Part shown: positions 528-64,000 of the stretch, one piece after another | How the letters are laid out: every line of letters starts with the position of its first letter | How positions within the stretch are numbered: position 1 is the stretch's first letter | Source: Heptranchias perlo | Lineage: Eukaryota | Assembly (NCBI RefSeq): GCF_035084215.1 | Contig: NC_090325.1 | Coordinates: 134,850,001-134,914,000 of the forward strand | DNA: 64,000 bases | Direction: 5' to 3' | The notes under the pieces: generated by a model | Told to the model about the DNA's origin: nothing | Database searches by the model: none | Seen by the model: the letters and a program-made list of their open reading frames with translations, nothing else | Program-made: the position numbers and the translations under genes

Positions 528-957
528 ATGCATGGTAATGGAGGAGGTTGGGATGTAGGCTGAAAGATATGATTCCTGAAGAACAACTGTGTCATGCTGT
601 TGCTTAACTAGTCTGTGGGTCAGGACTCCTAATTTGGCCAACATCCCCAGATGTTAACAAGGAGGACTTTGCAGGCTCGACTGGGCTGGAATTGCTCAGG
701 TTGTTGCCAATAGGTCCATCTGATATTTCTCTTATGTTTGTATCCTGTGGCGACTGTTTACAAATAAGTAGCTTGCTAGGTCACTTCAGAGGGCATTGGA
801 TTGCCTGGGCACAGACCCTGGAAAATTTCTCGTTAAGATATTGTGGGACTGCAGTCACATTTAGACCATGATGTGGAGATGCCGGTGATGGACTGGGGTT
901 GACAATTGTAAACAATTTTACAACACCAAGTTATAGTCCAGCAATTTTATTTTAAAT

Positions 958-994
958 TCACAAGCTTTCGGAGGCTTCCTCCTTCGTCAGGTGA
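958..994 (-). ncRNA. Minimal type I hammerhead ribozyme motif
   Basis: TCAC-CTGACGA-A-GGAGG-AAG-CCTCC-GAAA-GCTT-GTGA: CUGANGA and GAAA cores, helix II, palindromic AAGCTT helix III, helix I TCAC/GTGA. Confidence 0.75.
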
Positions 995-1020
995 ACGATG
1001 TGAAAATGAAATCCTCGAAA

Positions 1021-1176
1021 TGTTGCTTAACTAGTCTGTGGGTCAGGACTCCTAATTTGGCCAACATCCCCAGATGTTAACAAGGAGGACTTTGCAGGCT
1101 CGACTGGGCTGGAATTGCTCGGGTTGTTGCCAATAGGTCCATCTGATATTTCTCTTATGTTTGTATCCTGTGGCGA
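1021..1176 (+). repeat. 156-bp direct duplicate of 598-753 lying between the inverted arms
   Basis: Base-by-base identical except one position (ctcagg vs ctcggg). Confidence 0.95.
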
Positions 1177-1779
1177 TTTCATTTCGAGGATTTCATTTTC
1201 ACATCGTTCACCTGACAAAGGAGGAAGCCTCCGAAAGCTTGTGAATTTAAAATAAAATTGCTGGACTATAACTTGGTGTTGTAAAATTGTTTACATTTAG
1301 AACAGACTGGGTACATCCCTTCCCTGAAGGACGGTAGTGAACCTGACGGGTTTTTATGGCCAGCTTTTCTGGTGATCAGTTTTCCTGGTGCTACCCCATA
1401 AATTTAGTGAATTGACTTTCACAATTTATCATGGTAGGATTTTGAAATCGCAACCTCAGGGTTGCTTGTCTAGTACTGTAGCTACTACCCTACCCTTCTC
1501 GACCCCATACTGATAGAGCTCTGCATTTAGTTCATCCCGAATAGATGAAATCCACTAGAAACATAGAAATAATTTATTTTGAGCAGACACCTCACCAGTT
1601 CGGATTTTCCAGCAGAATACAAAGGAAACATCCTTCTAAGCCACTCTACTAACTCTGTCCCTCGAACTTCTGGGATTTCCCACCAGAAATGTTGTGGGGG
1701 TGGGGGGCAGAGAATACATGTACCTAAATATAGATGGTTGTATAGGTGTGATCAAACACTAAGCAAATGTCAGATATAC

Positions 1780-27300: not shown

Positions 27301-29498
27301 TGTGTTCAGGAGAACTTTCTTGATCAGTATGTTTCCGGCCCAACGAGGAAGGGGGCATTGCTGGATCTAGTTTTGGGGAATGAGGTGGGTCAAGTGGAGC
27401 AATTGGGGGAACATTTAAGGAACAGTGATCATAGAAACATAAGGTTTAGATTAATTATGGAAAAGAACAAGAAGCAATCTAGAGTAAAAATACTTAATTG
27501 GAGGAGGGCCAATTTCAGTGGGTTGAGAACGGATCTGGCCCGGGTAAACTGGAATCAAAGATTGGCAGGCAAAACTGAAATTGAACAATGGGTAGCTTTT
27601 AAAGAAGAGTCTAGATACATTCCCACGAGGGGGAAAGGTGGAGCAACCAAAGCCAAACCTCCCTGGGTGACTAAAGAGATAGAGAGCAAGATGAAGCAGA
27701 AAACGGGGGGGGCGGGGAGGGGGGGTATGACAGATGTCAGGTTGTTAATACAAGTGAGAATCAGGCTGAGTATAGAAAGTTCAGTGAGGAAGTAAAAAAG
27801 GAAATAAGAGGGTCAAAGTGAGAGTATGTGAATAGACTGGCAGCTAACATAAAAGAGAATCCAAAAACTTCTATAGGCATATAAATAGTAAACGGGTAGT
27901 AAGAGGACAGGTGGGACTGATTAGGGACCAAGAAAGGAGATCTAAGCATGGAGGCAGAGGACATGGCTGAGTTACTAAATGAGTACTTTGTGTCTGTCTT
28001 TACCAAGGAAAAAGATGCTGCCAAAGTCACAGTAAAAGAGCAGGTAGTTGAGATACTGGATCGGCTAAAAATTGATAAAGAAGAGGTACTAGAAAGGCTA
28101 GCTGTACTTAAAGTAAATAAGTCACTGGTCCGGATGGGATGCATCCTAGGTTGCTGAGGGAAGTAAGGGTGGAAATTGCATAGGTGCTCGCCATAATCTT
28201 CCAATCCTCCTCAGATATGAGGGTGGTGCCAGAGGACTGGAGGATTGCAAATGTTACAACCTTTGTTCAAAAAAGGGTGTAAGGATAAACCCAGCAACTA
28301 CAGGCCAGTCAGTTTAACCTCGGTGGTGGGGAAGCTTTTAGAAACAATAATCCAGGACAAAATTAAGTCGCTTGGACAAGTGTGGATTAATAAAGGAAAG
28401 CCAGCACGGATTTGTTAAAGGCAAATTGCGTTTAACTAACTTGATTGAGTTTTTTGATGAGATAGCAGAGAGGGTTGATGAGGGCAATGCAGTTGATGTT
28501 GTGTATATGGACTTTCAAAAGATGTTTAATAAAGTGCCACATAATAGGCTTGTCAGCAAAATTGAGGCCCAAGGAATAAAAGGGGCAGTGGCAACGTGGA
28601 TACGAAATTGGCTAAGTAACAGGAAACATAGAGTAGTGGTCAGCGTTTGTTTTTTGGACTGCAGGAAGGTGTGCAGTTGTGTTCCCCAGGGGTCAGTACT
28701 AGGACCACTGCTTTTTTTGATATATATTAATGCCTTGGACTTGGGTGTACAGGACACATTTACAGATGACACAAAATTTGGAAGTGTAGTAAACAATAAG
28801 GAGGATAGTAATAGACTTCAAGAGGACACAGACAGGCTGGTGGAATGGGCGGACACATAGCAGATCAAATTTAATGCAGAGAAGTGCAAAGTGATACATT
28901 TTGGCAGGAAGAATGAGGAGAGGCAATATAAACTAAATGGTACAATTCTAAAGGGGGTGTAGAAACAGAGAGATCTGGGGATATGTGCACAAATCTTTGA
29001 AGTTGGCAGGACAGGTTGAGAAAGCGGTTAAAAAAAGCATACAAGATCTTGGGCTTTATAAATAGAGGCATACGGGACAAAAGCAAGGAAGTTATATTGA
29101 ACCTTTATAAAACACTGGTTCGGCCACAGCTGGAGTATTGTGTCCAATTCTGGGCACCGCACTTTAGGAAGGATGTGAAGGCCTGAGAAAGGATGCAGAA
29201 AAGATTTACCAGAATGGTTCCAGGGATGAGGGACTTCAGTTACGTGTATAGATTGGAGAAGCTGGGGTTGTTCTACTTTGAGCAGAGAAGGTTAAGAGGA
29301 GATTTGATAGAAGTGTTCAAAATCATGAAGGGTTTAGATAAAGTAAATAAAGAGAAACTGTTCCATTGGCGGAAGGGTCGTGAACTAGAGGACACAGATT
29401 TAAGTTGATTGGCAAAAAAAAACAAAGACGACATGAGGAAAAACTTTTTTACACAGCAAGTAGTTATGATCTGGAATGCACTGCCTGAAAGGATGTTG

Positions 29499-29755
29499 TG
29501 GAGATGCCGGTGATGGACTGGGGTTGACAATTGTAAACAATTTTACAACACCAAGTTATAGTCCAACAATTTTATTTGAAATTCACAAGCTTTCGGAGGC
29601 TTGCTCCTTCCTCAGGTGAATGTTGTGGAGTTCACCTGAGGTGAATGTTGTGGAGTTCACAACATTCACCTGAGGAAGGAGGAAGCCTCCAAAAGCTTGT
29701 GAATTTCAAATAAAATTGTTGGACTATAACTTGGTGTTGTAAAATTGTTTACAAT
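29499..29755 (-). mobile_element. Penelope-like 3'-end insertion with 100-bp inverted arms (29528-29627 / 29658-29757), inside CR1
   Basis: Perfect 13-bp TSD tgaaaggatgttg (29486-29498 / 29756-29768); CR1 sequence resumes after it. Confidence 0.85.
29583..29619 (-). ncRNA. Minimal hammerhead ribozyme motif
   Basis: TCAC-CTGAGGA-A-GGAG-CAAGC-CTCC-GAAA-GCTT-GTGA. Confidence 0.72.
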
Positions 29756-30464
29756 TGAAAGGATGTTGGAAGCAGATTCAATGGTGGCTTTCAAAAAGAA
29801 ATTGGATAAATACTTAGAGAGAAAAAATTTGCAGGGCTACGGGGAAAGAGCGGGGAGTGGGACTAACTGGATTGCTCTTACAAAGAACTGGCACAGGCTC
29901 AACGGGCCGAATGGCCTCCTTCTATGCTGTAACCATTCTATGATACTATGTATCTACGAACATACAAAACTGACAGGCAGGAAAAGACCAGCTAGTCCAT
30001 CAAGCCTGCCCCATGCTGGCTTGAACATCATAACTAGACACTTCCCACCCTCCCTCGCCCCCAGCTCCACGGTCATCTAATCTCCAGGGAGAGGCAAAAA
30101 AACAGCGATAAAAACCCAGGGCCAATAAGGGAAAATTCATCTCCAACCCCCTCAGGCAATCTAAAGCCATCCAGGAGATCACATTGTCCAAGTGTTATCT
30201 ATAAAGATATTTACCTTCTATATGATGCGATCTCTGCCCCAGTCCAGAACCGGCCCAGCTCCCTCTGGTATATAGCAGGTCATTTGTATACAGAGTGAAA
30301 ATTTAGGGCACTAGTACTGATGCGTGGAAGACACAACTGTTCACTGCTCACCAATCTGGGAATGTTGCTTTTATCCCAGCATTCTGCCTCCTATCTCTCA
30401 TCCAATGTTTTACTCATAATATGGGGTTGTCTCCAACTCCAGGTGCCTCAATTTTAGCCAGTAA

Positions 30465-50809: not shown

Positions 50810-51592
50810 CTCATTCATTTTGGACCAAAAAAGGATATCTAAGTATTTTTGAAATGGTGAAAAGCTAGGAACAGTGGAGATCCAAAGAGATTTAGGGATC
50901 CATATATACAGATCACTAAAATGTAGTAGTCAGGTACAAAAAATAATCAAAAAGGCTAATGGAATGTTAGCCTTTATAACTAGAGGGCTCGAATATAAAG
51001 GGGAGGAAGTTTTGCTACAGCTATACAAAGCCCTGGTTAGACCGCATCTGGAGTACTGTGTACACTTCTGGGCACCGCACCTTAGAAAGGATATATTGGC
51101 CTTGGAAGGAGTGCAGCACAGATTCACTAGAATGTTATCATAGCTCCAAAGGTTATGAGGAGAGATTACATAAACTAGGCTTGTATTCCCTGGAATACAG
51201 AAGGTCAAGGGGTGATTTGATTGAGGTTTTTAGGATTTTGAAAGACATTGTTAGGGTAGATAGAGAGAAACTTTTTCCGCTGGTAGAGGAGTCTAGGACA
51301 AGGGGACATAATCTTAAAATCAGAGCCAGGCCATTCAGAAGAGAAATTAGGAAACACTTCTTCACGTAAAGGGTGGTAGAAGTGTGGAACTTTCTGCCAC
51401 AAAAAACAATAGATGTTAGGTCAATTAATAATTTTAAATCTGAGATTAATAGATTTTTGCTAGCCAAGGGTATTAAGGGATATGGAGCCAAGATGGGTGG
51501 ACAGAGTCAGGATACAGATCAGCCATGACCTCACTGAATGGTGGAACAGGCTTGAGGGGCTGAATGGCCTACTCCTGTTCCTGTGTTCCTAT
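50810..51592 (+). mobile_element. CR1 3' portion
   Basis: QRDLGI, LVRPHLEYC, RTRGHNLKI. Confidence 0.92.
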
Positions 51593-51754
51593 TTCCTTTC
51601 AACAATGGTTGTGGCAGATTTCCACATTATAAGTACCCTCTGTGTAAAGATATTTTTCTTATGTCCCCTCAAAATCTCTTTGTGCAATTTGCACCTTCCC
51701 ATTATTGACTTGTAAGCAGTGGAAACAATCTGTTACTGTTACCTTTATCATAAC

Positions 51755-53020
51755 ACAGGAACAAAGGAACTGGAATAGGCCATTCAGCCCCTCGAGCCTG
51801 TTCTGCCATTCAATTAGATCATGGCTGATCTGTATCTTAACTCCATCTACCTGCCTTGGTTCCGTAATCCTTAATGCCCTTGCCTAACAAAAATCTATCA
51901 ATCTCAGTTTTGAAATTTTCAATTGACCGAGCCTCAACAGCTTTTGGCGGAGAGAGTTCCAGATTTCCACTACCCTTTTTGTGAAGAAGTGCGTTCTGAC
52001 ATCACCTAGGAATGACCTAGCTCTAATTTTAAGATTATGCCCCCTTGTTCTGGACTCTCCCACCAGAGGAAATAGTTTCTCTCTATCTACCCTATCAAAT
52101 CCTTTAGTCATCTTAAAAATCTCAATTAGATCACCCCTTATTCTTCTATATTCAACAGAATACAAATCCAGTCTATGTAACCTGTCCTCATAATCTAACC
52201 TTTTTAGCCTTGGTAGCATCCTGGTGAGTCTGTGCTGCACCCCCTCCAAGGCTAATATATCCTTCCTGAGGTGCGGTGCCCAGAACTGAATGCAGTACTC
52301 CAGATGGGGTTTCACCAGAGCTCTGTACAGCTGTAACATAACTCCCACCCCTTTGTATTTCAGTCCTCTTGAGATAAAGGCCAACATTCCATTAGCCTTT
52401 AAAATTATTTTTTGTACCTACCCACTAGCTTTTAGTGATTTCTGTACTTGGACCCATAAATCTCTCCGCTAATGCACAGTTCCTAGCTTCTTGCCATTTA
52501 GAAAATACTCTAATCTATCTTTCTTGAGTCCAAAGAGGATGACTTCACACTTTCCCACATTGAACTCCAACAGCCACAGTTTTGACCACTCACTTAATCT
52601 ATCAATGTCCCTTTGCAACTTTCTGCTCCCATCTACACTACTTACTGTGCCACCTAACTTAGTGTCATCAGCAAACTTAGATATATAGCTCTCTATTCCT
52701 TCATCCAAGTCAATTATAAATATAATGAAAAGCTGCGGTCCCAGTACAGATCACTGGGGGACACCAATAGTCGCATCCTGCCAATTTGAGTACATACCCA
52801 TTATCCCTATTCTCTGTCTCCTACCTCCAAACCAATTCCCTATCCAAGCCAATAGGTTGCCTCCAATTCCATGCACTCTCATTTTTGTTAACAGTCTCTT
52901 ATGTGGAACCTTGTCGAATGCCTTCTGGAAGTCCATATAAATAACATCCATAGACAGTCCCTTATCTACCACATTAGTTACCTCCTCAAAAAATTCAACT
53001 AGGTTCATTAGACATAACCT
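51755..53020 (-). mobile_element. CR1 RT to 3'UTR, tail-to-tail with the previous copy
   Basis: MDFQKAFDKVPH, KFADDTKL, RTRGHNLKI. Confidence 0.92.
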
Positions 53021-55160: not shown

Positions 55161-57275
55161 CAGAAGCCCTGCTGGGAGGTGCATTAAATGGCTGTTCTAA
55201 GCTCTCACATTTTTTAACTCCTAGTCAGGGCAAAACTTCAAATTGCTCAAATCTCACTAGAATAACCATATAGCTAATACCCAATGCTGATTTGAAAGGC
55301 CCTGTAGCACTTCAATTTCAAACGGAAAGTCCAAATGACATTTCAGTTTCAACCAGACATCCCAGGTGGCCAAGAACTTTTGTTTGGTATCACTTCTTAC
55401 ATATGTTTTATTTTTGCAAGTAAATGTGCACATTCTTGCAAGGGTAGAGCGATCAATTGTTCTCAGATTTATGCCGACACAACCTGTATTCATCTCTCCT
55501 CCTAGCCATTAATATGTTCCAATACAAAACACAGTCTAGATTTACAACAGACTTAGCTACTTTTTTTTATTCGTTCATGGGATGTGGGTGTCGCTGGCGA
55601 GGCCGGCATTTATTGCCCATCCCTAATTGCCCTTGAGAAGGTGGTGGTGAGCTGCCTTCTTGAACCGCTGCAGTCCATGTGGTGAAGGTTCTCCCACAGT
55701 GCTGTTAGGTGGGGAGTTCCAGGATTTTGACCCAGTGACAATGAAGGAACAGCGATATATTTCCAAGTCGGGATGGTGTGCGACTTGGAGGGGAACGTGC
55801 AGGTGGTGTTGTTCCCATGTGCCTGCTGCTCTTGTCCTTCTAGGTGGTAGAGGTCGCGGGTTTGGGAGATGCTGTCAAAGAAAACTTGGCAAGTTGCTGC
55901 AGTGCATCCTGTGGATGGTACACACTGCAGCCATGGTGCACCGGTGGTGAAAGGAGTGAATGTTTAGGGTGGTGGATAGGGTGCCAATCAAGCGGGCTGC
56001 TTTGTCCTGGATTGAGTATTGTTGAAGCTGCACTCATCCAGGCAAGTGGAGAGTATTCCATCACACTCCTGACTTGTGCCTTGTAGATGGTGGAAAGGCT
56101 TTGGAGAGTCAGGAGGTGAGTCACTCGCTGCAGAATACCCAGCCTCTGACCTGCTCTTGTAGCCACAGTATTTATGTGGCTGGTCCAGTTAAGTTTCTGG
56201 TCAATGGTGACCTCAGCCTGTTGATGGTAGGTAATGCCGTTGAATGTCAAGGAGAGGTGGTTAGACTCTCCTTTGTTGGAGATGGTCATTGCCTGGCACT
56301 TGTCTGGCACGAATTATCAGCCCAAGCCTGGATGTTGTCCAGGTCTTGCTGCATGCGGGCACGGTCTGCTTCACTATCTGAGGGGTTGCAAATGGAACTG
56401 AACACTGTGCAATCATTAGAGAACATCCCCATTTCTGACCTTATGATGGAAGGAAGGTCAATGATGAAGCAGCTGAAGATGGTTGGCCCTAGGACATTGC
56501 CCTAAGGAACTCCTGCAGCAATGCCCTGGGGCTGAGATGATTGGCCTCCAATAACCACTACCACCTTCCTTTGTGCTAGGTATGACTCCAGCCACTGGAG
56601 AGTTTTCCCCCTGATTCCCATTGACTTCAATTTTACCAGGGCTCCTTGGTGCCACACTCTGTCAAATGCTGCCTTGATGTCAAGGGCAGTCACTCTCACC
56701 TCACCTCTGGAATTCAGCTCTTTTGTCCATGTTTGGACCAAGGCTGTAATGAGGTCTGGAGCCGAGTGGTCCTGGCGGAACCCAAACTGAGCATCGGTGA
56801 GCAGGTTATTGGTGAGCAAATGCCACTTGATAGCACTGTCAACGACACCTTCCATCATTTTGCTGATGATTGAGGATAGACTAATGGGGCAGTAATTTGC
56901 CGTATTGGATTTGTCCTGCTTTTTGTGGACAGGACATACCTGGGCAATTTTCCACATTATCAGGTAGATGCCAATGATGTAGCTGTACTGGAACAATTTG
57001 GCTAGAGGTGTGGCTAGTTCTGGAGCACATGTTTTCAGCACTACAGCCGGGATGTTGTCGAGGCCCATAGCCTTTGTTATATGCAGTGCACTCAGCCATT
57101 TCTTGATATCACGTGGAGTGAATCGAATTGGCTGAAGACTGGCTTCTGTGATGGCGGGGATATCAGGAGGAGGCCGAGATGGATCATCCACTTGGCACTT
57201 CTGGCTGAAGATAGTTGCAAACACTTCAGCCTTGTCTTTTGCACTCACGTGCTGGACTCTGCCATCATTGAGGAT

Positions 57276-57406
57276 TAACTCACACTCACCTGACGAAGGA
57301 GGAAGCCTCCGAAAGCTTGTGATTTTCAAATAAAACTGTTGGACTATAACCTGGTGTTGTAAGATTCCTTACATTTGTCCACCCCAGTCCATCACCGGCA
57401 TCTCCA
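57276..57406 (+). mobile_element. Penelope-like 3'-end insertion, single arm
   Basis: Perfect 13-bp TSD catcattgaggat (57263-57275 / 57407-57419); ends ccagtccatcaccggcatctcca. Confidence 0.85.
57286..57322 (+). ncRNA. Minimal hammerhead ribozyme motif
   Basis: TCAC-CTGACGA-A-GGAGG-AAG-CCTCC-GAAA-GCTT-GTGA, identical to 958-994. Confidence 0.75.
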
Positions 57407-57984
57407 CATCATTGAGGATGGGGATGTTCACAAAGCCTCCTCCTCCCTGCAATGAGGAAGCTTTTTAGAACAGCAAAGCAACAAATTTATTTAAAATGAA
57501 AATAAGACCTGAAACAAAATATAATCTACGTTTTCAAAAATTGAGTAACTGGAGTTGTTTCGGCCATTCCCGCCATTTTTCCATCGCCAAAGTTACGACA
57601 AATTCCCGCAGAATTTTGGGTATAAACCTTTGATTTGAGTAAAAGATTTACAAGGGCATTTTTGTATGTATAGACTTGGCTCTTGCAACTTCTACTATTT
57701 CCTAAACAAAGAGAGAAGTATCCATATTTTGTAAATATGAGGCTGATCATCCTGCAAGCCTTATTAAAAATCAAAATCCAGATGATACAGCAGTTCCTGG
57801 GCAGGAAGTTTTCTTTAGAAACATTTTCACCTCAAGGGAACAAGTATATTTATCAATATACTGACTATAAATAAATAACTAAGCACTAATAATGTGTTTT
57901 GGGACGTTTTGAGGTTGTGATATGGAGCTATATACATCCAAATTATTTCTTTCTTGCTAGCTGTTCTGTTACATGGTTTGATCA

Positions 57985-61733: not shown

Positions 61734-64000
61734 ACAGCCTGACATAGCCATACTCAAAGAATCATACCTTTCAGCCAACGTTCCAGACTCTTCATCACCA
61801 TCCCTGGGTATGTCCTGTCCCACCGGCCGGAAAGAACCACCAGAGGTGGCGGTAAAGTGGTATACAGTCAGGTGGGAGTGGCCCTGGGAGTCCTCAATAT
61901 TGACTCCGGACGCCATGAAATCTCATGGCATCAGGTCAAACATGGGAAAGAAAACCGCCTGCTGATTACCAGTTACCGCCCTCCCTCAGCTGATGAATCA
62001 GTCCTCCTCCATGTTGAGCTCCACTTGGAGGAAGCAATGAGGGTAGCAAGGGCACAGAATGTACTCTGGGTGGGGGACTTCAATGTCCATCAAGAGTGAC
62101 TCAGTAGCACCACTACTGACCGAGCTGGCTGAGTCCTGAAGCACATAGCTGCCAGACTGGGCCTGCATCAGGTGGAGAGTGAACCAACATGAGGGAAAAA
62201 CCTACTTGACCTCGTCCTCACAAATCTACCTGTCACACATGCTTCTGTCCATGACAGTATTGGTAGGAGTGACCATCACACAGTCCTTGTGGAGATGAAG
62301 TCCCATCTTCACACTGAGGACACCATCCAACGTGTTGTGTGGCACTACCACCGTGCTAAATGGGACAGATTCAGAACAGATCTAGCAGCTCAAATCTGGG
62401 CATCCATGAGGCGCTGTAGGCCATCAGCAGCAGCAGAATTGTATTCCAGCACAATCTGTAACCTCATGGCCCAGCATATTCCTCACTCTACCATTACCAA
62501 AGCCAGGGGATCAACCCTGATTCAATGAGGAGTGTAGAAGAGCATGCCAGGAGCAGCACCAGGAGTACCTAAAAATGAGGTGCCAACCTGGTGAAGCTAC
62601 AACACAGAACTACATGCATGCTAAACAGCGGAAGCAACATGCTATAGACAGAGCTAAGCGATTCCACAACCAATGGATCAGATCAAAGCTCTGCAGTCCT
62701 GCCACATCCAGTCATGAATGGTGGTGGACAATTAAACAACTAACGGGAGGAGGAGGATCTGTAAACATCACCAACCTCAATGATGGCAGAGTCCAGCATG
62801 TGAGTGCAAAAGATAAGGCTGAAGCATTTGCAACCATCTTCAGCCAGAAGTGTCAACTGGATGATCCATCTCAGCCTCGTCCCGATATTCCCACCATCCC
62901 AGAAGCCAGTCTCCAGCCAATTCGATTCACTCCATGTGATATCAAGAAACGGCTGAGTGCACTGGACACAGAAAACGCTATGGGCCCCGACAACATGTAG
63001 TGCTGAAGACTTGTGCTCCAGAACTAGCCGCATCTCTAGCCAAGCTACAACACTGGCATTTACCCGACAATGTGGAAAATTGTCCAGGTACGTCCTATCC
63101 ACAAAAAGCAGGACAAATCCAATCCGGCCAATTACTGCCCCATCAGTCTACTCTCAATCATCAGCAATGTGATGGAACGTGTCGTCGACAGTGCTATCAA
63201 GCGGCACTTACTCACCAATAACCTGCTCACCAATGCTCAGTTTGGGTTCACCAGGACCGCTTGGCTCCAGACCTCATTACAACCTCGGTCCAAACATGGA
63301 CAAAAGAGCTGAATTCCAGAGGTGAGGTGAGAGTGACTGCTCTTGACATCAAGGCAGCATTTGACCGAGTGTGGCACCAAGGAGCCCTAGTAAAATTGAA
63401 GTCAATGGGAATCAGGGGGAAAACTCTCCAGTGGCTGGAGTCATACCTAGCACAAAGAAAGATGGTAGTGGTTTTTGGAGGCCAATCATCTCAGCCCCAG
63501 GACATTGCTGCAGGGGTTCCTCAGGGCAGTGTCCTAGGCCCAACCATCTTCAGCTGTTTCATCAATGACCTTCCCTCCATCATAAGGTCAGAAATGGGGA
63601 TGTTCGCTGATGATTGCACAGTGTTCAGTTCCATTCGCAACCCCTCAGATAATGAAGCAGTCCCACATGCAGCAAGACCTGGACCAGAAACTTAACTAGA
63701 CCAGCCACATAAATACTGTGGCTACAAGAGCAGGTCAGAGGCTGGGTATTCTGCAGCGAGTGACTCACTTCCTGACTCCCCAAAGCCTTTCCACCATCTA
63801 CAAGGCACAAGTCAGGAGTGTGATGGAATACTCTCCACTTGCCTGGATGAGTGCAGCTTCAACAACACTCAAGAAGCTCGACACCATCTAGGACAAAACA
63901 GCCCGCTTGATTGGCACCCCATCCACCACCCTAAACATTCATTCCCTTCACCACCGACGCACCGTAGCTGCAGTGTGTGCCATCCGCTCGATGCGCTGCA
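61731..64000 (+). mobile_element. Family B non-LTR retrotransposon, APE + RT, decayed, runs off the window
   Basis: YRPPS, VGDFN, NYCPISLLS, GVPQGSVLGP, MFADD; stops and an internal deletion near 63684. Confidence 0.92.

What the first reader, a model, noticed from the sequence alone, without database searches (positions are those of the whole stretch)
598..1304. Hammerhead-flanked fold-back insertion that copied 156 bp of neighbouring DNA into its loop
Seen: the insertion reads TSD - Penelope-type 3' end (minus) - 156-bp copy of 598-753 (1 mismatch) - inverted 116-bp copy of the same end - TSD. The donor segment ends only ~103 bp left of the target site. Known: Penelope-like elements carry minimal hammerheads and often have inverted 5' segments. 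Inference: during integration the polymerase switched from element template to adjacent chromosomal DNA and back, giving a ribozyme-bracketed cassette of captured local sequence. If recurrent genome-wide, this would be a little-described local duplication mechanism.
Basis: partly seen in the sequence, partly recalled or inferred. Interest (0 to 1): 0.72.

Follow-up and report, generated by a model that had tools for sequence, protein, structure and literature searches.

The report
Penelope insertion copied neighbouring DNA
A jumping gene landed as two mirror-image partial copies with a 156-base copy of nearby DNA between them, and about 3 in 100 sister insertions sampled show the same, likely because a loose DNA end briefly copied its surroundings while the two halves were being joined, a kind of scar already known from other jumping genes.

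Summary
Observation confirmed. 865-1295 is a Penelope-like element (PLE) insertion: target-site duplication (TSD), tailed arm, a 156-bp direct copy of 598-753 (1 mismatch), tail-less inverted arm, TSD. Other genomic relatives of the loop found are at most 87% alike, so the donor is local. The right arm holds 7 nt more element than the left, so it is not a fold-back of the left arm; a second cDNA fits better. Junction microhomologies are TG and GCGA. Census of 188 other inverted pairs: 5 firm own-flank captures (92-437 bp, 70-790 bp away, direct and inverted, both flanks) and 2 doubtful; control expectation 0.01. All 7 long non-element centres match their own flank. Best reading: a templated insertion made while two cDNA ends were joined. 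The enzyme and the timing are not shown. The hammerheads lie on opposite strands and one has a core mutation, so this is not a ribozyme-bracketed cassette. Closest known: L1 templated insertions and R2 snap-back junctions. This scan has noted such captures before, in this genome and in another. New variant of a known kind; interest moderate.

The parts
598..753 (+). Donor segment in the left flank (piece of an old dispersed repeat)
857..865 (+). Left TSD copy, 9 nt exact (12 nt with one mismatch, to 868)
   Evidence: family mode of 12 nt
865..1022 (-). Tailed arm: PLE terminus, element positions 1-158, 100% identical to a sister copy
865..903 (-). About 39-nt 'tail', present on this arm only
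   Evidence: tail-less arms end at element position 38-43 in 170 of 192 pairs
959..993 (-). Minimal hammerhead motif, core intact
   Evidence: read from sequence against the features in PMC4209133; no Rfam hit
1021..1022 (+). 2-nt microhomology (TG) shared by tailed arm and donor
1021..1176 (+). 156-bp direct copy of 598-753 (templated insertion)
1173..1176 (+). 4-nt microhomology (GCGA) shared by donor and tail-less arm
1173..1295 (+). Tail-less inverted arm, element positions about 43-165, 7 nt deeper than the left arm
1209..1243 (+). Minimal hammerhead motif with a G8-to-A core change at 1217 (CpG-type)
1293..1301 (+). Right TSD copy (to 1304 as a 12-mer); its first 3 nt overlap the arm end

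Best explanation
This is a Penelope-like retrotransposon insertion made of two head-to-head partial copies with a 156-bp copy of the left flank between them, likely laid down when a loose cDNA end copied nearby chromosomal DNA while the two copies were being joined during integration. Shown: the layout, the local donor, the 2-nt and 4-nt microhomologies, the longer right arm and the recurrence. Inferred: (1) the element's endonuclease made a cut staggered by about 12 nt; (2) both 3' ends primed reverse transcription, one at the tail start site and one about 40 nt inside, giving two antisense cDNAs that cannot pair with each other; (3) the tailed cDNA end paired through TG with the flank about 260 bp back and was extended 156 nt on DNA; (4) the new end paired through GCGA with the end of the second cDNA, and the gaps were filled. 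The direction in step 3 is only modestly favoured, and the polymerase (element RT or host repair enzyme) is unknown. The product is a dead insertion scar; the hammerheads are passengers.
For: The right arm has 7 nt that are absent from the left arm. Among 57 pairs with an arm over 200 nt, the tail-less arm is more than 30 nt longer in 20, the tailed arm in 20, and 17 are within 30 nt (permutation mean 3.7). Single-arm insertions with a TSD start at either site. In vitro, a PLE protein nicks and extends both strands and starts at two sites that bracket the tail (PMC11167929). Own-flank captures: 6 of 192 pairs at 80 nt or more and 97% or more, against 2 of 36,672 centre-by-foreign-flank pairs. 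Of 11 centres of 80 nt or more, 4 are element-derived and 7 match their own flank. The tailed-side junction has microhomology of 2 nt or more in 6 of 6 firm cases (chance about 1.5e-5), the tail-less side in 4 of 6. Extra element pieces in the centres of L117 and L250 read as copies of cDNA if synthesis ran from the tailed end. Loop against donor differs at 4 of 1,064 nt and arm against arm at 4 of 910 nt in the same six loci, the same age within noise.
Against: The age comparison rests on 8 differences and cannot separate integration from repair soon after. The inner junctions were not seen in reads. The opposite direction of synthesis gives the same sequence at this locus. 17 of 57 long pairs are nearly symmetric, which a fold-back of one cDNA also explains. 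Lengths and distances exceed the published polymerase-theta range (template within 50 bp, tracts rarely over 10 bp; PMC7165422) and the L1 range (within 15 bp), so no described enzyme fits well. The sample is mostly the first part of one contig, with flanks searched to 1.5 kb at most.
Confidence: 0.7

Rival explanations
1. The element first landed as a plain palindrome; later the hairpin centre broke, the left arm was trimmed by 7 nt or more, and host repair patched the break by copying nearby DNA.
For: It gives the same final sequence and explains the unequal arms. Many centres show repeated snap-back pieces (L037, L069, L086, window 29,610-29,660). Centre-break repair of palindromes is recalled from the literature and was not looked up.
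Against: 139 of 189 pairs keep centres with under 10 nt of filler, so plain palindromes persist. Loops are no younger than arms (low power). In L068 the donor lies about 830-1,270 bp from the centre but 346-786 bp from the target site.
Confidence: 0.15
2. One reverse transcriptase made the whole top strand: element RNA, then flank DNA, then back onto its own cDNA as a fold-back.
For: R2 cDNA ends snap back onto cDNA or nearby target DNA (PMC11371274, passages). Self-priming was proposed for PLE palindromes (PMC3846280, passages). L250 holds a 29-nt flank unit repeated in tandem without microhomology, which looks like RT template jumping.
Against: The right arm carries 7 element bases that this strand never made. 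Tail-less arms are often hundreds of bases longer than the tailed arm.
Confidence: 0.07
3. The RT switched to a host RNA transcribed across this site, so the loop is a cDNA of nascent local transcript and not a copy of DNA.
For: RTs switch between RNA templates (R2 'extra template' junctions). A tethered nascent transcript would explain why donors are local.
Against: No poly(A) or splice mark in any loop. Donors are mostly old repeat fragments. Both orientations and both flanks occur. Host transcription at these loci was not tested here.
Confidence: 0.04
4. The duplication is an assembly artefact at a hard-to-assemble hairpin.
For: No listed contig spans the inner junctions, and the sample's contigs read G at 698 where the assembly has A. 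Inverted PLE structures are known to trouble assemblies (PMC8557442, passage).
Against: The contig over 499-868 has 1.37-1.41 times the depth of the right-flank contig; 1.26-1.37 is expected if 156 bp are present twice (weak, one sample, contig depth is a poor copy measure). Clean microhomology at both junctions, an intact TSD, and five more loci with the same logic.
Confidence: 0.03

Closest known systems
Canonical endonuclease-positive PLE insertion unit: inverted 5'-truncated copy, one-sided 30-40 bp tail, TSD, hammerhead (PMC8557442 and PMC3846280, passages; PMC4209133, passages)
   Same: Head-to-head arms, one-sided tail of about 39 nt, TSD, minimal hammerhead, RT plus GIY-YIG-type ORF in longer sisters.
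   Different: The passages read describe no copy of the insertion's own flank at the inversion joint. The host DNA captured between pLTRs in Adineta vaga was described as unrelated spacers or genes moved to new places, not traced to the landing site.
L1 templated insertions and twin priming (bioRxiv 10.1101/2024.08.27.596794, section 4 read; PMC11702581, passages)
   Same: A retrotransposon insertion that duplicates a nearby genomic segment; both nicks used as primers; microhomology at the joints.
   Different: L1: 22 of 3,598, under 250 bp, within 15 bp of the site, and twin-primed halves come from different parts of the RNA (the authors say they did not search for these events specifically). 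Here: 5 of 188, 92-437 bp, 70-790 bp away, and both halves copy the same end of the RNA.
R2 snap-back 5' junctions (PMC11371274, passages)
   Same: The cDNA 3' end primes further DNA synthesis on cDNA or, less often, on nearby target DNA before joining.
   Different: Defined as opposite-strand copies at a one-cDNA junction; here direct copies also occur and sit between two element arms.
Polymerase-theta templated insertions (PMC7165422 and PMC5068794, passages)
   Same: Direct and inverted flank copies, short microhomology, repeated priming rounds.
   Different: Those tracts are mostly under 10-25 bp from templates within 10-50 bp of the break; these are about ten times longer and farther.

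Membership tests
Endonuclease-positive Penelope-like element | ORF with RT followed by a GIY-YIG endonuclease in linked copies | tested here: inconclusive
   Sister L019 continues into a 431-aa open frame. Pfam RVT_1 E=3.1e-6, 27.5 bits, under the 29.6 cut-off. A VVY...YIGET motif and a Cys cluster are read by eye (motif names recalled). Pfam gave no GIY-YIG hit. Only a C-terminal part was examined.
Endonuclease-positive Penelope-like element | Inverted 5'-truncated copy with a 30-40 bp tail on one end only | tested here: met
   Tail 865-903 on the left arm only; 170 of 192 pairs end the second arm at element position 38-43.
Endonuclease-positive Penelope-like element | Target-site duplication | tested here: met
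   9 nt exact here; 145 of 192 pairs have 12-13 nt (pairs were selected for 7 nt or more).
Endonuclease-positive Penelope-like element | Clade (Neptune against Penelope/Poseidon) by RT phylogeny | not tested
   A Cys-rich linker motif before the endonuclease in L019 would fit Neptune/Nematis by the passage in PMC8557442; no tree was built.
Minimal PLE hammerhead | CUGANGA and GAAA core, extra base between 9 and 10.1, G10.1-C11.1 pair, palindromic 15.2-16.2 | tested here: met
   Left copy has all of them (against PMC4209133). The right copy has a G8-to-A change, so it fails the core. A core pattern is intact on both arms in 126 of 189 pairs.
Minimal PLE hammerhead | Self-cleavage as dimer or with protein help | not testable with these tools
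   The lowest-energy fold of the intact copy is not the hammerhead fold (z -1.68).
Retrozyme or ribozyme-bracketed cassette | Two same-strand hammerheads flanking a unit that is copied to other loci | tested here: not met
   The motifs lie on opposite strands; the loop has no near-identical copy elsewhere.
L1-type templated insertion | Non-element segment copied from DNA near the insertion site | tested here: met
L1-type templated insertion | Template typically within 15 bp of the site | tested here: not met
   103 bp here; 70-790 bp in the other five.
Polymerase-theta templated insertion | Template within 50 bp of the break and short synthesis tracts | tested here: not met
   92-437 bp tracts, 70-790 bp away against PMC7165422.
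Polymerase-theta templated insertion | Dependence on polymerase theta | not testable with these tools
   Needs a knockout in a retrotransposition assay.

The most novel reading that the evidence does not exclude
PLE integration regularly leaves two free, non-complementary cDNA ends, and the element's own telomerase-like RT resolves them by jumping onto chromosomal DNA up to about 1 kb away, on either strand and either flank. That would be an element-encoded local duplication engine that has made a few hundred 0.1-0.4 kb duplications in this genome and records the still undefined end-joining step of PLE mobility.
Probability: 0.25. Interest if true: 0.65.

Novelty: new variant of a known kind. 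Interest (0 to 1): 0.4.

Why it matters
How PLEs finish integrating, and why they leave inverted copies, is stated to be open (PMC8557442, PMC11167929). These centres are a natural record of that step: they point to two cDNA ends that search their surroundings before joining, and they give countable predictions (rate about 3%, size 0.1-0.4 kb, distance under 1 kb, both orientations) for the existing in vitro system or a cell assay. As a source of duplications it is minor: an extrapolated 270 events (range about 115-610) in a 3.25-Gb genome, and this one copies a piece of an old repeat with no evident function.

Tried and rejected
Rfam finds no hammerhead at the gathering threshold in the window; by E-value it gives only a chance miRNA-like hairpin, E=0.094. 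Single-strand folding gives no significant stability (z -1.2 to -1.7). Pfam and PDB searches did not confirm the GIY-YIG domain. Public runs: four runs of one sample hold the stretch; four others share 0.05-0.08 of the words, and the one laid (X5) covers only the element arms, so no empty allele could be tested. No joint skipping the whole insertion was among the 15 joints shown; 227 were not shown. Doubtful captures, left out of the firm count: L218 (207 nt, 96.6% to its flank, 95.5% to a copy elsewhere) and L300 (29 nt of a common repeat, 24 nt exact at other loci). L067's 32-nt own-flank hit is element tail and vanished when element sequence was masked. L071's 94-nt centre is element-derived. 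Three rows (L282 and both L322 rows) were dropped as mis-paired before the count of 189. A bias of donors to the tailed flank (7 of 8 including the doubtful two, p=0.07; 5 of 6 firm) is not significant. Single-arm insertions: apart from element-derived fillers, none of 80 nt or more matched its own flank among 68 rows with a TSD (the rows include repeats of paired loci and chance TSDs); one 18-nt local inverted copy was seen (L048). This is too few to say that capture is specific to inverted pairs. The Fisher test against the L1 rate (p=0.009) is not relied on, because the L1 study did not search for these events specifically. Literature searches found no paper describing own-flank copies at PLE inversion joints; the library lacks most subscription papers.

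Full report
OBSERVATION. The structure is present as described. Window 598-753 recurs at 1021-1176 with one mismatch. It lies between inverted arms, and the whole is flanked by ACATTTAGA at 857-865 and 1293-1301; read as a 12-mer to 868 and 1304, the duplication has one mismatch. The donor ends 103 bp before the left TSD. The donor is part of an old repeat: of 40 scored genomic matches only the two local copies are 99-100% alike, and the other 38 are 77-87% alike over 89-141 nt. The loop therefore came from next door.

THE ELEMENT. The left arm matches many copies in the 3.25-Gb genome (1,853 exact hits of one 30-mer). Longer sisters run into an open frame with a weak Pfam RT hit (E=3.1e-6, below cut-off) and a C-terminal VVY...YIGET motif read by eye; Pfam did not confirm the endonuclease. 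The one-sided tail of about 39 nt, the inverted truncated copy, the TSD and the minimal hammerhead match the described PLE insertion unit (PMC8557442, PMC3846280 and PMC4209133, passages). The clade was not tested.

JUNCTIONS. Sister copies continue past the point where the left arm stops. The left arm leaves the element at position 158 through a 2-nt microhomology (TG). The right arm reaches position 165 and meets the donor through a 4-nt microhomology (GCGA). The right arm thus holds 7 nt that the left arm lacks, and it cannot have been copied from the left arm as it stands. The family agrees: among 57 pairs with an arm longer than 200 nt, the tail-less arm is longer by more than 30 nt in 20, the tailed arm in 20, and 17 are within 30 nt (permutation mean 3.7, maximum 12). 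Tail-less arms end at element position 38-43 in 170 of 192 pairs, and single-arm insertions start at either site. This fits the in vitro result that a PLE protein nicks and extends both strands and starts at two sites that bracket the tail (PMC11167929, parts 1-2 of 4 read).

HAMMERHEADS. The left motif (959-993) reads on the minus strand and is intact. The right motif (1209-1243) reads on the plus strand and has a G8-to-A change. A transcript of either strand holds one sense motif and its antisense partner, so the loop is not bracketed by two working ribozymes. In PMC11167929 hammerhead mutants did not affect insertion in vitro. Rfam and folding gave no added support.

CENSUS. I examined 328 loci: 30 best genome-wide hits, loci picked by position along the first part of contig C1 from four exact patterns, and a second insertion in this window; some loci overlap. 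They held 194 tailed/tail-less pairs, 192 with a TSD of 7 nt or more. I dropped 3 mis-paired rows, leaving 189 with this locus. Each centre was compared with its own element-masked flanks (up to 1.5 kb a side) and with all other flanks. At 80 nt or more and 97% or more, 6 of 192 centres match their own flank, against 2 of 36,672 foreign pairs (0.01 expected). The five others are L068 (437 bp, inverted, tailed flank, 346-786 bp), L104 (106 bp, direct, tail-less flank, 70-176), L117 (92 bp, direct, tailed flank, 690-782), L124 (176 bp, inverted, tailed flank, 354-530) and L250 (94 bp plus two shorter repeats, direct, tailed flank, 153-247). L218 and L300 are doubtful because their donors are common repeats. 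The rate is 5 of 188 (2.7%; Wilson 95% interval 1.1-6.1%). Of 11 centres of 80 nt or more, 4 are element-derived and the other 7 (six firm, plus L218) match their own flank. No firm loop has a copy above 90% at another fetched locus, so the loops are not part of the element. Three tail-less-end patterns give 16,555 hits; 143 of 235 such loci held a counted pair, which extrapolates to about 10,000 pairs and about 270 captures (115-610). That figure assumes that C1 is typical.

MECHANISM. Microhomology at the tailed-side junction is 2, 3, 6, 3, 2 and 3 nt in the six firm cases (all six at 2 nt or more; chance 1.5e-5), and at the tail-less side 4, 0, 3, 0, 3 and about 5 nt (L104 and L124 were scored against the continuation seen in their own subfamily). 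In L117 and L250, short element pieces inside the centre read as sense copies on the tailed strand, which needs only cDNA as template; the other direction would need a return to RNA. Loop against donor (4 of 1,064 nt) and arm against arm (4 of 910 nt) have diverged alike, as expected if both arose together, but the power is low. Most palindromes keep tight centres (139 of 189 under 10 nt), so later breakage is not needed, though not excluded. The polymerase is not identified.

READS. Contigs of one sample cross both outer junctions by 24-26 nt. The contig over 499-868 has 1.37-1.41 times the depth of the right-flank contig, close to the 1.26-1.37 expected from a doubled 156 bp. These contigs read G at 698, so the single mismatch may be a collapsed pair of copies, a heterozygous site or an assembly error. 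The inner junctions remain unseen in reads, and the sample may be the one the window was assembled from.

COMPARISON. L1 makes templated insertions (22 of 3,598; under 250 bp; within 15 bp of the site; bioRxiv 10.1101/2024.08.27.596794, section 4 read; its supplementary figure with the distances could not be seen and may bear on this comparison). PMC11702581 (passages) also reports templated genomic insertions and notes that the L1 protein can extend DNA ends on DNA templates. R2 cDNA ends snap back on cDNA or nearby target DNA (PMC11371274, passages). Polymerase-theta insertions come in direct and inverted classes but are short and close to the break (PMC7165422 and PMC5068794, passages). The finding works like these, but it fails their distance criteria. 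Searches found no paper on own-flank copies at PLE inversion joints. PMC7229834 (passages) was read for hammerhead background only.

EARLIER SCAN NOTES. After I had recorded my reading, the scan's index showed several notes of flank copies inside PLE fold-backs in this genome and one in another genome, mostly inverted copies, and many notes on the two-cDNA reading. They are unchecked AI notes and add no support; they call the animal a shark, which I did not test.

VERDICT. Real, recurrent at about 3% of inverted pairs, and best read as a templated insertion at the joint between two cDNAs. It is a new variant of a known kind, with no sign of function. Interest 0.4.

Noticed in passing
window 29,490-29,770: Second fold-back insertion of the same family, 13-nt TSD, with a centre of repeated snap-back pieces (25-nt tandem repeat at 29,610-29,660); no flank capture.
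   Followed up: yes
window 57,286-57,412: Single-arm copy of a related subfamily on the opposite strand, apparently with a TSD.
   Followed up: partly
L250 (G000:C1:14544620-14547650), centre 1272-1428: After a 94-bp flank copy, a 29-nt flank unit recurs in tandem through the same junction without microhomology; resembles repeated copying of a short DNA piece by template jumping.
   Followed up: partly
census, 132 short pairs: Inner ends cluster at element positions 120-149 (109 of 132), which may mark the RNA 5' end; this locus ends slightly beyond, at 158 and 165.
   Followed up: no
L067 3521-3581: The tail-less arm runs through about 2.5 kb and into an upstream tail, which shows the tandem junction of tail and body inside an inverted arm.
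   Followed up: partly
L157: A pair with two tail-less arms and a 12-nt TSD: both ends used the inner start site.
   Followed up: no
window 866-960, minus strand: The tail-less start site (window about 904-907) lies in a predicted A/C-rich stem-loop (z -1.6), like the initiation stem-loop described in PMC11167929.
   Followed up: partly
L040 and L041 (C1 15.59 and 15.60 Mb): Two loci 12 kb apart show the same insertion with the same flank, probably a segmental duplication; counted once.
   Followed up: no
window 50,811-52,542 and 55,898-57,273 / 62,775-64,000: Large inverted pairs of older repeats, 78% and 89% alike; probably independent copies of dispersed elements.
   Followed up: no
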